Assembly (NCBI GenBank): GCA_016176335.1
Contig: JACOXI010000004.1
Coordinates: 82,303-146,302 of the forward strand
From: Candidatus Daviesbacteria bacterium
Lineage (GTDB): Bacteria > Patescibacteriota > Microgenomatia > Daviesbacterales > UBA10151
DNA: 64,000 bases
Direction of reading: 5' to 3'
The notes under the pieces were generated by a model that was not told where the DNA came from, did not search any database, and worked only from the letters and a program-made list of their open reading frames with translations. The position numbers and the translations under genes were made by a program. Positions 26,586-28,908 of this stretch are shown piece by piece (within the stretch, counting starts at the first letter, position 1; every line of letters begins with the position of its first letter).

Positions 26586-27500
26586 ATGGCTAATACCAGA
26601 GAACTTCGAAGAAGAATAAAATCTGTGAAAAATACCGCACAAATAACTCGCGCCATGCAGATGGTGGCAGCCACTAAAATGAGGAGGGCACAAAGTCAGG
26701 CCTTAAATGGCAGGCCGTACAATTTTAACCTGAATTATGCCTTGAGAAAGCTATTGCCTTTGGTGGATATTGGGTCTCACCCTCTGCTTTTAGGTAATGA
26801 TTGTAAAACTTACGGTGTAATTTTGCTTTCAACAGACAAGAGCCTTTGCGGGGCCTTAAATACTAATATTTTCAGGATGCTGACAACCTCTGTTCTACCT
26901 TCTGACACTTATTTTTATACTGTTGGTAAAAAGGGGCGCCAATTTATTGCCAAAACAGGTAAAAATCTGGTGGCTGATTTTGAAAATCTTGATGTTGTGA
27001 CATTCAGGCAGGCTGCACAACTTGCAAAATTGGTTATTAGTGCTTATTTGAATAAAGAAATCGGCGAGGCGTATCTTGCTTACCCGAATTTTATTTCAAC
27101 TTTACGGCAAGAACCCAGGCTGGTGAAGTTGTTGCCCGTCAGTATATCGGATATCGAATATCGTATATCGGAAGACAAAAACGATAAGCAAAGCTTGCGA
27201 TCTAACGATCTAAAACGATTAACGATTAACGATAAACAAACTGGTGAGTTTCTTTTTGAACCTGACTCCTCTACCCTTTTGGATTTTACCTTAAACCACT
27301 TTATACAAATTAAAATTTACCAGTCCCTTTTGGAAACAAAAGCTGCGGAGCACTCTGCCAGAATGGTGGCTATGCAAAATGCCACTGATAATGCTCTAGA
27401 ACTTGTAGATGATTTGTCCTTAACTTATAATCAGACCCGCCAAAGCGCAATTACCACCGAAATTTTGGATATCACAACAGCGCAACTGGCTTTGGAGTAA
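26586..27500 (+). CDS. atpG: F0F1 ATP synthase subunit gamma (with low-complexity insert)
   Basis: N-terminal [36 protein letters not shown]; C-terminal gamma helix. Repeat-encoded insert at 27142-27236. Confidence 0.9.
27142..27236 (+). repeat. degenerate tandem repeat (tatcg / cgat[at]aa units) in frame inside atpG
   Basis: gtatatcggatatcgaatatcgtatatcgg ... cgatctaacgatctaaaacgattaacgattaacgataaac, encoding [33 protein letters not shown]. Confidence 0.7.
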
Positions 27501-27501
27501 T

Positions 27502-28908
27502 ATGGGCAAAAACACAGGAAAAATTACACAAATAATATCAGCAGTAGTAGATTGCGAATTTGATCCAAAACAACTTCCTGCCATCTATCATGCGTTAATC
27601 GTAGATCGTAAATCGTCTATCGGAAATGATAATCGAAAAACGATAAACGATAAACTAGTGTTGGAGGTGCAACAGCATTTAGGAGAGGGACAAGTCCGCT
27701 GTGTTGCCATGGGCTCAACAGACGGGCTTAAGCGTGGTAGCGCGGTTACTGACACAGGTGGTCCAATTTCCGTGCCTGTCGGAGAAGAAGTTTTAGGAAG
27801 ATTATTTAATGTTTTAGGAGAAACAATTGATGGAAAAGGTACGGTCAAGGCCAAAAAACAGTTGCCAATTCACAGGTTTGCTCCCGCCTTTGAGGAGCAA
27901 TCCCAAACATCCGAAGTTTTTGAAACAGGTATTAAGGTGATAGACCTTTTGGCACCATTTGTTAGAGGTGGTAAGGTGGGGCTTTTTGGAGGAGCCGGAG
28001 TTGGAAAAACTGTCATTATTCAGGAACTGATCAGAAACATTGCACAAGAACATGGTGGGTTTTCTGTTTTTGCAGGGGTTGGTGAGCGGACCCGTGAGGG
28101 AAATGATTTATATCACGAGATGATCCAGTCAGGGGTAATCAACAAAACTGCTATGGTTTTCGGACAGATGAATGAACCTCCCGGAGCCCGTTTAAGAGTT
28201 GGCCTTTCAGGTCTGACCATGGCAGAGTATTTCCGTGATGAGGGTGGGAAGGATGTCCTGCTTTTTATTGACAATATCTTTAGATTTTCTCAAGCAGGTT
28301 CGGAAGTATCTGCCCTGTTGGGTCGTATCCCCTCTGCCGTAGGATACCAGCCGACACTAGCTTCAGAGATGGGGCAATTGCAGGAAAGGATTACTTCCAC
28401 CAAAAAAGGATCTATCACTTCTGTTCAGGCAGTTTATGTACCGGCAGATGATTATACAGACCCGGCACCCGCCACCACCTTTGCTCATTTGGATTCCACT
28501 ATTGCGCTGGAGCGGGCTTTAACAGAACAGGGCCTCTACCCTGCTGTTGACCCGCTGGCCTCCTCATCCAGAGCCTTGTCACCGGAGATTGTAGGACAAG
28601 AACATTATGAGGTGGCTCAAGCAGTGCAAAAAGTTTTGCAAAGGTATAAGGATCTGCAGGATATTATTGCTATTTTGGGAATTGAGGAATTGTCTGATGA
28701 GGATAAATTAACAGTGGCCAGAGCCAGAAAAATCCAAAGAATGTTAACCCAACCCCTCTTTGTGGCAGAAGCTTTCACAGGTAGAAAAGGGAAATATGTT
28801 TCCATTAAAGATACAGTTTCCGGATTCAAAGAAATTTTGGCAGGTAAACATGACGGGAAACCTGAACAAGCTTTTTATATGATAGGAACTATTGAGGAAG
28901 TTAAGTGA
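27502..28908 (+). CDS. atpD: F0F1 ATP synthase subunit beta (with N-terminal repeat-encoded insert)
   Basis: GGAGVGKTV Walker A and DELSDEDKL (the beta-subunit DELSEED loop region). Insert [19 protein letters not shown] at nt 27594-27656. Confidence 0.95.
27594..27656 (+). repeat. degenerate cgataaa-type repeat in frame inside atpD
   Basis: aatcgtagatcgtaaatcgtctatcgg...aatcgaaaaacgataaacgataaac, encoding [20 protein letters not shown] where other beta subunits have about 6 residues. Confidence 0.7.

What the first reader, a model, noticed from the sequence alone, without database searches (positions are those of the whole stretch)
27142..27656. CGATAAA / TATCGT mini-repeat family inserted in frame into conserved genes
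Near-identical degenerate repeats built from cgat[at]aa / tatcg units occur inside:
- atpG (27142-27236)
- atpD (27594-27656)
- trmD (6705-6732, encoding FIVYRLS)
- pheT (39515-39540)
- gatD (48314-48385)
- murT (49448-49477)

In each case they keep the reading frame. They encode recurrent peptide words ([43 protein letters not shown]). These sit at positions where orthologues (for example the E. coli beta-subunit N-terminus) have no or much shorter sequence. This looks like a lineage-specific, possibly mobile, in-frame mini-insertion element analogous to Rickettsia palindromic elements, but tandem rather than palindromic. Alternatively it reflects a replication-slippage hotspot on a preferred k-mer.
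Basis: seen in the sequence. Interest (0 to 1): 0.75.

Follow-up and report, generated by a model that had tools for sequence, protein, structure and literature searches.

The report
Seven-base hairpin repeats inside essential genes
In this uncultured groundwater-type bacterium (Candidatus Daviesbacteria), short hairpin-forming DNA repeats built from 7-base units sit in frame inside loops of essential proteins such as ATP synthase. They behave like small selfish DNA that is gained, lost and swapped between related species, much like the known Rickettsia palindromic elements.

Summary
The repeats are real. CGAT/ATCG cores recur at exactly 7-nt spacing 22 times where about 0.5 is expected, and period 7 is the only enriched tandem period in the window (18 arrays against 0.15 in shuffles).

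- The TATCG and CGATA runs are the two arms of hairpins, so the elements are tandem and palindromic.
- They are one family among at least 75 heptamer unit types that pervade Daviesbacteria (CPR), in intergenic spacers, 5' leaders and protein loops.
- The atpG copy carries a nested 27-nt mini-insertion.

Four of the six listed sites are true insertions (atpG, atpD, trmD, gatD). pheT has no net insertion and murT is undecidable.

The atpG, atpD and gatD loops are hot spots where related species carry different hairpin elements or none. The same atpG element sits at the same codon in five scattered lineages: 89% nt identity against 62-67% in the flanks. The closest relatives (about 92% aa identity) lack it.

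Best reading: non-autonomous hairpin repeats imported as pre-formed, frame-preserving blocks and tolerated only in disordered surface loops. This is a new variant of known kinds (RPE / intragenic REP combined with heptanucleotide STRR-type repeats). The mobilising mechanism is unknown.

The parts
27141..27240 (+). Composite hairpin element in atpG (codons 186-219). The left arm is (ATATCGN)x4 at 27144-27172. The right arm is CGAT(C/T/A)(T/A)A units at about 27199-27240, of which 27213-27237 is the clean tandem run. The apical part holds a nested 27-nt insertion.
   Evidence: z = -3.75. The closest relatives P0002-5 and L081 lack it. The same element sits at the same codon in L059, L205, L206 and L207. 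AF2 gives pLDDT < 50 for residues 200-219.
27186..27212 (+). Nested 27-nt mini-element AAGCAAAGCTTGCGATCTAACGATCTA (two tiny hairpins) inside the atpG element; it encodes KQSLRSNDL.
   Evidence: Absent from the four other atpG copies of the element. The same 22-mer core occurs at window 41793-41814(-) and L014 13139-13160. In L014 it is a clean 27-nt in-frame insertion relative to five orthologues.
27593..27659 (+). Hairpin element in atpD (codons 31-53, a beta-turn of the N-terminal barrel). The left arm is (NNATCGT)x4 and the right arm is (ACGATAA)x3.
   Evidence: z = -4.37. Most sister species have the short loop. L012 and L055 carry the same family at the same site, and L081 has a short degenerate remnant.
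6648..6737 (-). trmD element: a perfect (TTTATCG)x4 in the sense strand (FIVYRLS), a 38-nt spacer, and one complementary CGATAAA unit (SRYDK).
   Evidence: z = -2.5. It is a 15-aa insertion relative to S. aureus TrmD.
6363..6390 (-). Second heptamer array in trmD, (CATCTTC)x3 in the sense strand, encoding IFRLPSSN.
   Evidence: It is an 8-aa insertion relative to PDB TrmD.
48313..48386 (-). Hairpin element in gatD (codons 138-162). On the + strand the arms are (TATCGTN)x4 and (CGATNAN)x4.
   Evidence: z = -4.13. It is a 20-aa insertion relative to PDB GatD. 81 of 120 homologues have the short loop ESMFGK, and 39 carry other heptamer-hairpin inserts at the same turn.
39501..39530 (-). Short, imperfect CGAT-family array in pheT (LRLTINDL), with no inverted partner.
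   Evidence: There is no net insertion relative to PDB PheT.
49448..49477 (-). Imperfect array of 4 CGAT-family units in murT (TIFNIRLTIN), with no clear partner.
   Evidence: The site does not align to solved MurT structures.
18781..18807 (-). (TTCATCG)x3 array in the class-I aminoacyl-tRNA synthetase gene (PF00579 family), encoding SSLIVHRK.
   Evidence: L081 has unrelated sequence of similar length at this site.
10952..10990 (-). (ACCGACT)x4 array in a variable loop of recG (LPTTDYRLPT). This is a different unit family.
   Evidence: L010 carries a related array at the same site and other species have unrelated loops.
24012..24110 (+). Intergenic heptamer-ladder hairpin between atpE and atpF: (CTCAAAA)n ... 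(TTTGAGA)n.
   Evidence: z = -7.9. It is not terminator-like. L081 has an unrelated sequence at the same place.
48801..48865 (-). Intergenic heptamer-ladder hairpin between murT and gatD: (AGTCGTC)n ... (GNCTGAN)n.
   Evidence: z = -2.55. No terminator-like site was called.
534..567 (+). (GTCTACC)x4 array in the 5' leader or long signal peptide of a type IV pilin-like gene. Similar arrays lie at 1181-1214 (GAAGTCG) and 1722-1794 (CAATTGA / AATTTCA).

Best explanation
The CGATAAA/TATCG tracts are the two arms of small, non-coding-by-origin hairpin repeat elements, about 65-100 nt long. Each arm is a short tandem array of a heptanucleotide: a pairing core of about 5 nt plus about 2 variable nt. 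The single strand therefore folds into a ladder of 4-5-bp helices separated by small internal loops.

They belong to a large, multi-family population of heptamer arrays and heptamer hairpins in Candidatus Daviesbacteria genomes.

Proposed mechanism:
- The arrays can grow unit by unit only where the reading frame does not matter, that is in intergenic spacers and leaders. That is where they are about 5.6-fold enriched.
- Copies then enter genes as pre-formed blocks, either by an unknown copy-and-paste or templated-repair step, or by short-patch recombination between lineages.
- Copies survive only when three conditions hold: the block length is a multiple of three, the frame that is read is free of stops, and the site is a disordered surface loop.

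The encoded peptides (TIND, RLTIN, FIVYRLS) are by-products, not the selected feature. The same few loops (AtpG before the C-terminal helix, the AtpD barrel turn, a GatD turn, a RecG loop) are therefore hit again and again, and they turn over quickly.

Shown: the periodicity, the hairpin potential, the insertion sites, the patchy distribution, element conservation far above that of the flanks, the nested 27-nt insertion, and the family burst in this genome.

Inferred: the block-wise import, the intergenic 'nursery', and neutrality.

Unknown: the enzyme. A Y1/HUH (RAYT-like) transposase gene lies in the window, but its own flanking hairpins are a different sequence.
For: - Period 7 alone is enriched in the window. 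It is also enriched in nearly all 59 sister loci.
- 48 of 125 arrays have an inverted partner within 120 nt, against 7-9 in controls.
- Fold z-scores run from -2.5 to -7.9.
- The inserts map to loops missing from solved orthologues. In the AlphaFold model of AtpG, residues 200-219 of the insert have pLDDT < 50.
- Hot-spot loops show many different hairpin inserts, or none, across species: AtpG, AtpD, GatD with 39 of 120 carrying inserts, and RecG.
- The closest relative, L081, is about 93% identical on both sides of the atpG element. Identity collapses over a patch of about 130 nt. The only indels of 6 nt or more inside the atp genes are the two CGAT elements.
- The atpG element sits at the same codon in five lineages whose nearest neighbours (81-93% aa identity for three of the four tested) carry other loops. 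Element identity is 88.8% against 62-67% in the flanks. For window against L059 it is 64/66 against 35/57. The only left-arm differences are two non-synonymous changes, which suggests recency rather than protein-level constraint.
- The CGAT family is amplified in this genome: 7 of 18 arrays here against 3 of 105 elsewhere, p = 4e-5.
- Lone perfect arrays inside genes are always in the stop-free orientation.
- Arrays are about 5.6-fold enriched outside long ORFs.
- A 7-nt step shifts the frame, so unit-by-unit growth inside atpG, atpD or trmD would pass through lethal intermediates. This follows from the sequence arithmetic.
Against: - No transposase, terminal inverted repeat or target-site duplication could be tied to the heptamer hairpins. 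Copies of the CGAT family share only the heptamer units; their loops differ in length and sequence.
- 75 distinct unit types are too many for classical element families. They point to a generic array-forming process.
- At several sites the element replaces ancestral loop residues instead of adding cleanly to them.
- The left-arm peptide SDIEYRISE resembles the ancestral helix EDIMEYVKE of other lineages, so an in-situ origin of the atpG allele cannot be excluded.
- All five known copies of the atpG element are at one site; no copy was found in another gene.
- Only 64 kb of this genome was seen, together with atp-centred loci of the others.
Confidence: 0.55

Rival explanations
1. Pure in-situ mutational origin. 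A replication or repair bias towards 7-nt slippage, plus quasi-palindrome template switching, creates and symmetrises arrays locally in fast-evolving loops. Nothing moves.
For: - An excess of heptanucleotide repeats is reported for many prokaryotes and has been attributed to polymerase slippage (PMC4679880 and PMC4692102, both citing Mrazek et al. 2007).
- There are 75 distinct units in Daviesbacteria.
- TATCG-core arrays occur in contigs of 23-73% GC.
- Orthologous atpD copies differ in unit number: 4+3 in the window against 5+4 in L012.
- Loops are often replaced rather than extended.
- The left-arm peptide resembles the ancestral helix.
Against: - Each 7-nt step is a frameshift in an essential gene.
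- A near-identical element, including its variable seventh positions, is present in five scattered lineages but absent from their closest relatives.
- One unit family is amplified in this genome.
- Divergence from L081 takes the form of a sharp patch of about 130 nt.
Confidence: 0.22
2. Selected function. The hairpins are functional mRNA or DNA structures (translation pausing, mRNA stability, protein-binding sites), or the inserted peptides add a function to the proteins.
For: - The element is more conserved than the flanking coding sequence.
- Predicted folding is strong.
- Intergenic members sit between co-transcribed genes, where stem-loops could tune expression (24012-24110 and 48801-48865).
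- Arrays lie directly upstream of the pilin coding sequences.
Against: - The closest relatives do without the inserts.
- Unrelated elements occupy the same loops.
- No compensatory changes are seen: 1 of 27 pairs in the atpD alignment, and L055 has decayed. Right-arm changes in L206 are uncompensated.
- The insert is predicted to be disordered.
- There is no Rfam match and no terminator signature.
Confidence: 0.1
3. Assembly or binning artefact in repeat-rich metagenome contigs.
For: The L059 contig ends inside the repeat, which shows that assemblers struggle at these sites.
Against: - The genes remain intact and in frame.
- The same element architecture appears in independent assemblies from different studies: NCBI MAGs, Logan assemblies and an ENA Hainich contig.
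- The window's AtpG and GatD are identical to deposited NCBI proteins (P0001 and P0121).
Confidence: 0.03

Closest known systems
Rickettsia palindromic elements (RPE; Ogata et al. 2000, as summarised in PMC10969869 and PMC3733652)
   Same: Both are palindromic repeats inserted in frame into unrelated housekeeping genes, at positions compatible with the protein fold. Both show presence/absence differences between related species, and both occur in small-genome bacteria.
   Different: RPEs are about 100-150 bp families with a conserved full-length sequence and a conserved peptide. Here the elements are 65-100 nt, only the heptamer units are shared between copies, and the arms are tandem 7-nt arrays. 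The host phylum differs (CPR). No sequence relationship was tested.
REP / REPIN elements with RAYT transposases, including intragenic REPs (PMC3116915, PMC3733652)
   Same: Both are hairpin-forming inverted doublets that are mostly extragenic but sometimes lie in frame within genes, encoding 20-30 aa. A Y1_Tnp (RAYT-like) gene is present in the window at 21319-22014.
   Different: The RAYT-like gene here is flanked by its own GTAG-tagged hairpin, TTCCCAC-N7-GTGGGAAGGTAG, not by heptamer arrays. The CGAT family has no GTAG or CGTC tag. The arms are tandem arrays rather than single imperfect palindromes.
Heptanucleotide simple-sequence repeats: cyanobacterial STRR, GGGAATC in Xanthomonas, GGGGA(T/C)T in Nostoc, TAACTGA in Beggiatoaceae (PMC4692102, PMC4679880)
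   Same: The unit is exactly 7 nt, with 2-6 or more head-to-tail copies. Period 7 is uniquely over-represented. Some arrays occur as inverted pairs, and some sit directly upstream of start codons. Length and sequence turn over rapidly between relatives.
   Different: Those repeats are reported as essentially intergenic, with one or a few unit types per genome. Here most arrays (61%) lie inside long ORFs, including essential genes. There are dozens of unit types, and a third of arrays form hairpin pairs.
Small dispersed repeats (SDR, 21-27 nt) of Nostoc (Elhai et al. 2008; cited in PMC4390886 and PMC3116915; details recalled from memory, paper not held)
   Same: The nested 27-nt element shows precise presence/absence at orthologous sites, nests inside another repeat, and has a length that preserves the reading frame.
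   Different: Different phylum and sequence. Only about 3-6 copies were seen here. No test of relationship was possible.
Phase-variable heptanucleotide coding repeats (for example neuO of E. coli K1, PMC13001214)
   Same: A 7-nt unit inside a coding region, so that the gene is in frame only for certain copy numbers.
   Different: Those are contingency genes with long, perfect arrays. Here the arrays are short (3-4 units), mostly imperfect, and lie in essential genes where switching off would be lethal. Only the pilin-leader arrays could plausibly act this way.

Membership tests
Heptanucleotide tandem repeats (STRR / long-SSR class) | The repeat unit is exactly 7 nt, arranged head to tail | tested here: met
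   TRF and an own scan list period-7 arrays at all the stated sites.
Heptanucleotide tandem repeats (STRR / long-SSR class) | Period 7 is over-represented relative to other periods and to shuffles | tested here: met
   18 arrays against 0.15 in shuffles; periods 4-6 and 8-12 give 0-1. The same holds in the sister loci.
Heptanucleotide tandem repeats (STRR / long-SSR class) | Predominantly intergenic location | tested here: inconclusive
   Arrays are about 5.6-fold enriched outside long ORFs, yet 81 of 133 lie inside them.
Rickettsia palindromic elements | A palindromic repeat inserted in frame in protein-coding genes at structurally permissive sites | tested here: met
   Hairpins. Insertions relative to solved orthologues. 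Disordered in the AF2 model.
Rickettsia palindromic elements | Membership of an RPE sequence family (conserved consensus of about 100-150 bp and a conserved peptide, in the genus Rickettsia) | tested here: not met
   The host is Candidatus Daviesbacteria. The elements are 65-100 nt, and copies share only the heptamer units, not a full-length consensus. No direct comparison with RPE sequences was run.
REP / REPIN mobilised by RAYT | A conserved GTAG (or CGTC) tag at one end of a 20-40-nt imperfect palindrome | tested here: not met
   CGAT-family arms have no such tag. The GTAG-tagged hairpin in the window is a different sequence.
REP / REPIN mobilised by RAYT | The cognate repeats flank the RAYT gene | tested here: not met
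   The Y1_Tnp ORF at 21319-22014 is flanked by TTCCCAC-N7-GTGGGAAGGTAG, not by heptamer arrays.
REP / REPIN mobilised by RAYT | Inverted doublets that fold into a long hairpin | tested here: met
MITE | Terminal inverted repeats matching a parent IS element, and a target-site duplication | tested here: inconclusive
   No IS relative or TSD was found for the heptamer hairpins. The nested 27-mer is flanked by TAA...TAA in three copies, but the A-run makes this ambiguous.
Phase-variable contingency locus | Within-population variation in copy number that switches the reading frame | not testable with these tools
   No read-level or population data were available. The essential nature of atpG, atpD and trmD argues against it.

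The most novel reading that the evidence does not exclude
Daviesbacteria, and possibly other CPR lineages and some low-GC Chloroflexi-like MAGs, may carry a previously undescribed class of 'heptamer-ladder' hairpin elements. Under this reading the elements are generated and copied by a mechanism with a built-in 7-nt ruler, for example reiterative synthesis followed by snap-back copying, or an HUH/Y1 enzyme acting on single-stranded hairpins. They are pasted as frame-preserving blocks into protein loops. This would make the loops of essential enzymes a fast-evolving, horizontally exchanged compartment. It would also give an experimental handle on the long-unexplained excess of heptanucleotide repeats in prokaryotic genomes.
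Probability: 0.2. Interest if true: 0.8.

Novelty: new variant of a known kind. Interest (0 to 1): 0.6.

Why it matters
- In-frame 'selfish' hairpin DNA in essential genes is not confined to Rickettsia. It is a pervasive feature of at least one CPR lineage, where a third of GatD homologues and many AtpG and AtpD homologues carry such inserts.
- It links two separately known phenomena: the unexplained excess of 7-nt repeats, and intragenic palindromic elements.
- It bears on annotation and phylogeny of CPR proteins, because loop cassettes can be exchanged independently of the gene.
- It bears on structure prediction, because the inserts are disordered and non-homologous.
- It bears on assembly, because contigs break at these sites.
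- It defines concrete hot-spot loops where gain, loss and replacement of elements can be followed in population metagenomes.

Tried and rejected
- Exact-sequence look-up of the window's AtpG in the contig index found nothing, although an identical NCBI protein exists (P0001).
- A peptide search with the element-encoded sequence, to find copies in other protein families, failed twice. The first query was too short.
- Viral-contig scans for the atpG left arm and for the 27-mer returned no hits.
- Rfam at gathering thresholds found only tRNAs.
- RNAalifold on the three atpD copies gave no useful covariation, so a conserved-structure argument was dropped.
- Terminator scans did not call the intergenic hairpins, so the idea that they are intrinsic terminators was dropped.
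- The RAYT-like gene was considered as the mobiliser. Its own flanking hairpins differ from the heptamer arrays, so the link remains a guess.
- Homologous-recombination import with long flanking tracts was considered for the five atpG copies. The flanks next to the element are not more similar than the gene average. Only the comparison of the window with L081 shows a patch of about 130 nt.
- The Elhai 2008 SDR paper could not be read.
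Full report
**What is in the sequence.**
- They are built from a core ATCG/CGAT repeated at exactly 7-nt spacing. CGAT...CGAT at distance 7 occurs 10 times and ATCG...ATCG 12 times in 64 kb. About 0.25 each is expected from their counts, and every other distance gives 0-2.
- Period 7 is the only tandem period enriched in the window. There are 18 arrays at a 12-of-14 match threshold against 0.15 in shuffles, and 0-1 for periods 4-6 and 8-12. 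TRF agrees.
- The arrays use many different units besides CGATAAA: GTCTACC, GAAGTCG, CAATTGA, AATTTCA, GAAGATG, AGTCGGT, CGATGAA, CTCAAAA, AGTCGTC and TGATTTA.
- NCBIfam confirms the gene identities: atpG, atpD, trmD, an N-terminally short pheT, gatD, murT, recG and pilin-like genes.

**Tandem and palindromic.** In atpG, atpD and gatD, a run of (N)TATCG(N) units is followed 15-40 nt later by a run of the complementary CGATA units.
- As single strands these fold into ladders of 4-5-bp helices separated by small symmetric internal loops.
- Against dinucleotide shuffles, z = -4.4 (atpD), -4.1 (gatD), -3.75 (atpG) and -2.5 (trmD, whose second arm is a single unit).
- Two intergenic members have the same architecture with other units: atpE-atpF at 24012-24110 (z = -7.9) and murT-gatD at 48801-48865 (z = -2.55).
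- Neither intergenic hairpin looks like an intrinsic terminator.
- Across the window and 60 Daviesbacteria loci, 48 of 125 arrays have an inverted partner within 120 nt, against 7-9 in reversed or complemented controls.

**Organism and generality.** Relatives of the AtpG protein place the window in Candidatus Daviesbacteria (Microgenomates, CPR).
- Period-7 arrays occur in nearly all sister loci at about 1-3 per 10 kb. They are essentially absent from high-GC outgroup loci.
- They do appear in a Komeilibacteria locus and in two 43-44% GC MAGs labelled Caldilinea. One of these has arms of about 100 nt.
- In 64 Daviesbacteria loci I counted 133 arrays with 75 distinct canonical units.
- 61% of the arrays lie inside stop-free frames of at least 120 codons. 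Such frames cover 90% of the DNA, so arrays are about 5.6-fold enriched outside genes.
- A metagenome scan for four TATCGNN units returned at least 120 contigs of 23-73% GC, several with inverted partners. Heptamer arrays with this core are therefore not lineage specific.
- This matches the literature. An excess of heptanucleotide repeats is reported for many prokaryotes, together with STRR in cyanobacteria, GGGAATC in Xanthomonas and TAACTGA in Beggiatoaceae, and these repeats are described as mostly intergenic (PMC4692102, PMC4679880).

**Are they insertions?**

| Gene | Result |
|---|---|
| atpG | Residues about 190-218 have no counterpart in solved gamma chains |
| atpD | About 10 extra residues against Bacillus TA2.A1; Geobacillus has a loop of nearly equal length |
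| trmD | 15 extra residues (FIVYRL + SRQGVSRYD); a second heptamer array adds 8 more (IFRLPSSN) |
| gatD | 20 extra residues |
| pheT | Aligns without a gap |
| murT | Site cannot be aligned |

An AlphaFold2 model of AtpG (mean pLDDT 82) gives pLDDT below 50 for residues 200-219 and a weak helix at 187-202. The insert therefore behaves as a disordered surface loop.

**Hot-spot loops with fast turnover.**
- *AtpG.* The segment between LLP(I/V) and EFLFEP ranges from 23 to 60 residues in 120 homologues. It carries a limited set of recurring insert types: the CGAT type, SVIPANAGIQ...DSRLRGND, SVILNVSEGS...QNDK, SVIASVAKQS...PRND and others.
- *AtpD.* Most species have AL-EIT-RGK-EKLVLE. The window, L012 and L055 carry the CGAT hairpin at that turn. 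L054 carries a GGAGTAA/ACTC heptamer hairpin. L010, L027 and L048 carry a GTCATCC...AATGAC palindrome. L028, L039 and L207 carry CACCTCGGAGGTG hairpins.
- *GatD.* 81 of 120 homologues have the baseline turn ESMFGK. The other 39 carry 5-28-residue inserts whose peptides correspond to at least eight heptamer-hairpin families.
- *RecG.* Its loop behaves in the same way.
- *Independence of sites.* Occupancy of the atpG and atpD sites is independent across species.

**Evidence for import rather than local growth.**
1. The closest available relative is L081 (AtpG about 92% identical outside the loop). It is about 93% identical in DNA on both sides of the atpG element, but unrelated over about 130 nt from 27116 to 27250. 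Within the atp genes, the only indels of 6 nt or more between the two genomes are the two CGAT elements.
2. The atpG element occurs at the same codon in five lineages: the window, L059, L205 (P0009), L206 (P0039) and L207 (P0103). These are only 59-69% identical in AtpG. The nearest neighbours of three of them carry other loops (90-93% aa identity for the window and P0009, 81% for P0039); the nearest neighbour of P0103 is P0009 itself, at 73.5%.
   - Mean pairwise nucleotide identity is 88.8% in the element, against 67% and 62% in the upstream and downstream flanks. For the window against L059 it is 64/66 against 35/57.
   - The left arm shows no synonymous change at all, only two non-synonymous ones. 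This looks like recency rather than protein-level constraint.
3. The CGAT family makes up 7 of 18 arrays in the window but 3 of 105 in 59 sister loci (Fisher p = 4e-5). That is a lineage-specific burst.
4. Adding or removing one 7-nt unit shifts the frame, so an array cannot grow stepwise inside atpG, atpD or trmD. It must arrive as a block whose length is a multiple of three.
5. Lone perfect arrays inside genes are always read in the orientation that has no stop in any phase: TTTATCG, ACCGACT and TTCATCG. Arms in the stop-prone orientation (CGATAAA and CGATTAA contain TAA) are imperfect exactly where a stop would arise. The recurrent words RLTIN and TIND are the one open phase of that unit.

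**A nested mini-element.** The window's atpG copy differs from the other four by 27 extra bases, AAGCAAAGCTTGCGATCTAACGATCTA (27186-27212). These fold into two tiny hairpins at the apex.
- The same 22-mer core occurs at window 41793-41814(-). There the probable pheS start codon lies in the loop of the second hairpin.
- It also occurs in L014, inside a glycosyltransferase gene. There it is a clean 27-nt in-frame insertion relative to five orthologues, including the window.
- Relatives in L012, L013 and L031 keep the first module and vary the second hairpin with compensating changes: GATC/GATC, CCATC/GATGG and GAGC/GCTC.
- This resembles the 21-27-nt small dispersed repeats described in Nostoc. 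That comparison rests on recollection and on citations in PMC4390886; the paper itself is not held.

**What could move them.**
- The window encodes a Y1_Tnp (IS200-like, RAYT-like) protein at 21319-22014.
- It has three copies of a GTAG-tagged hairpin, TTCCCAC-N7-GTGGGAAGGTAG: upstream, inside and at the end of the gene.
- The gene is at the same locus in L207, L036 and L037 and is absent from L081.
- Its hairpins are not heptamer arrays, so a role in moving the CGAT family is only a guess.
- I found no terminal inverted repeats, target duplications or conserved loop sequences for the heptamer hairpins.
- At several sites the element replaces loop residues rather than simply adding to them.
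- The left-arm peptide SDIEYRISE resembles the ancestral helix EDIMEYVKE. Short-patch recombination of loop alleles between lineages, or an in-situ origin of this particular allele followed by spread, therefore remains possible.
- The 75 unit types argue that arrays are also born de novo, most plausibly in intergenic DNA.

**Comparison with known systems.** Functionally the elements behave like Rickettsia palindromic elements and intragenic REPs. All are palindromic, in frame, located in permissive loops, and patchily distributed among relatives (PMC10969869, PMC3733652).
- They are not members of those families. They have no GTAG or CGTC tag, no RAYT flanking, no full-length consensus, and a different host.
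- In unit structure they belong with heptanucleotide STRR-type repeats. They differ in being mostly intragenic, highly diverse in unit sequence, and often paired as hairpins.
- I found no paper describing this in CPR bacteria.

**Verdict.**
Four of the six sites are genuine in-frame insertions.
- It is a new variant of known kinds, with an unknown mobilising mechanism.
- One result remains unexplained: the same element sits at the same codon in five scattered lineages.

Noticed in passing
window 21293-22014 (ORF 21319-22014, +): There is a Y1_Tnp / RAYT-like transposase gene with three copies of a GTAG-tagged hairpin, TTCCCAC-N7-GTGGGAAGGTAG, at 21293-21315, 21775-21797 (inside the coding region, in frame) and 21989-22011 (at the stop). 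The segment 21368-23016 is almost entirely absent from the closest relative L081 (three gaps of 605, 638 and 354 nt). The gene sits at the same locus upstream of atpB in L207, L036 and L037.
   Followed up: partly
window 41793-41820 (-); L014 13139-13167; L012 8031-8048; L013 15435-15452; L031 9880-9905: A family of 27-nt mini-elements (ATAAGCAAAGCTTGC plus a variable second hairpin with compensating changes). One copy is a clean in-frame insertion in a glycosyltransferase gene of L014. One sits at the probable pheS start, with the ATG in the hairpin loop.
   Followed up: partly
window 526-600, 1153-1230, 1718-1800: Three adjacent type IV pilin-like genes each have a heptamer array (GTCTACC, GAAGTCG, CAATTGA/AATTTCA). 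The array lies between an upstream in-frame ATG and the canonical MLKGFTLVEL or MSNEKGQSLMEL prepilin start. It could be a long leader peptide, or a 5' leader whose copy number tunes or switches expression. The same CAATTGA array, including its G variant, occurs in L016 at 15868.
   Followed up: partly
window 6947-6974: An intergenic copy of a palindromic repeat, GATTGCTTCGCTACGCTCGCAATGAC (reverse: GTCATTGCGAGCGTAGCGAAGCAATC), next to trmD. The same 26-27-mer occurs in L013 and L052. The family appears translated in frame (SVIASVAKQS...PRND) in AtpG loops of other Daviesbacteria.
   Followed up: partly
window 24012-24110 against L081 7393-7513: The atpE-atpF spacer holds a strong heptamer-ladder hairpin in the window and an unrelated GC-rich sequence in L081. 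The position is the same but the sequences differ, which hints that some structure there may matter for operon expression.
   Followed up: no
L068 12784-13017; L061 8912-9254; L075 7200-7317: Very long heptamer hairpins, (AGTAAGG)n ... (CTTACTN)n with arms of about 100 nt, occur in 43-44% GC MAGs labelled Caldilinea aerophila. Heptamer arrays also occur in a Komeilibacteria locus. The architecture therefore extends beyond Daviesbacteria.
   Followed up: no
L205 1420-1689; L207 10943-11197: Two relatives have an extra small ORF (84-89 aa, no Pfam hit on record) between atpG and atpD. The window lacks it.
   Followed up: no
window 39088-40740 (-): PheT is only 550 aa. It aligns from its residue 35 to residue about 155 of solved bacterial PheT chains (about 795 aa) and ends near their residue 600-690, so it lacks N- and C-terminal domains.
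   Followed up: no
window 28936-30401 against L081 12265-13158: atpC (epsilon) is separated from atpD by reverse-strand ORFs with no Pfam hit for the two scanned (28936-29508, 29516-30022). This segment differs from L081 by many indels; L081 has a carbonic-anhydrase-like gene there.
   Followed up: no
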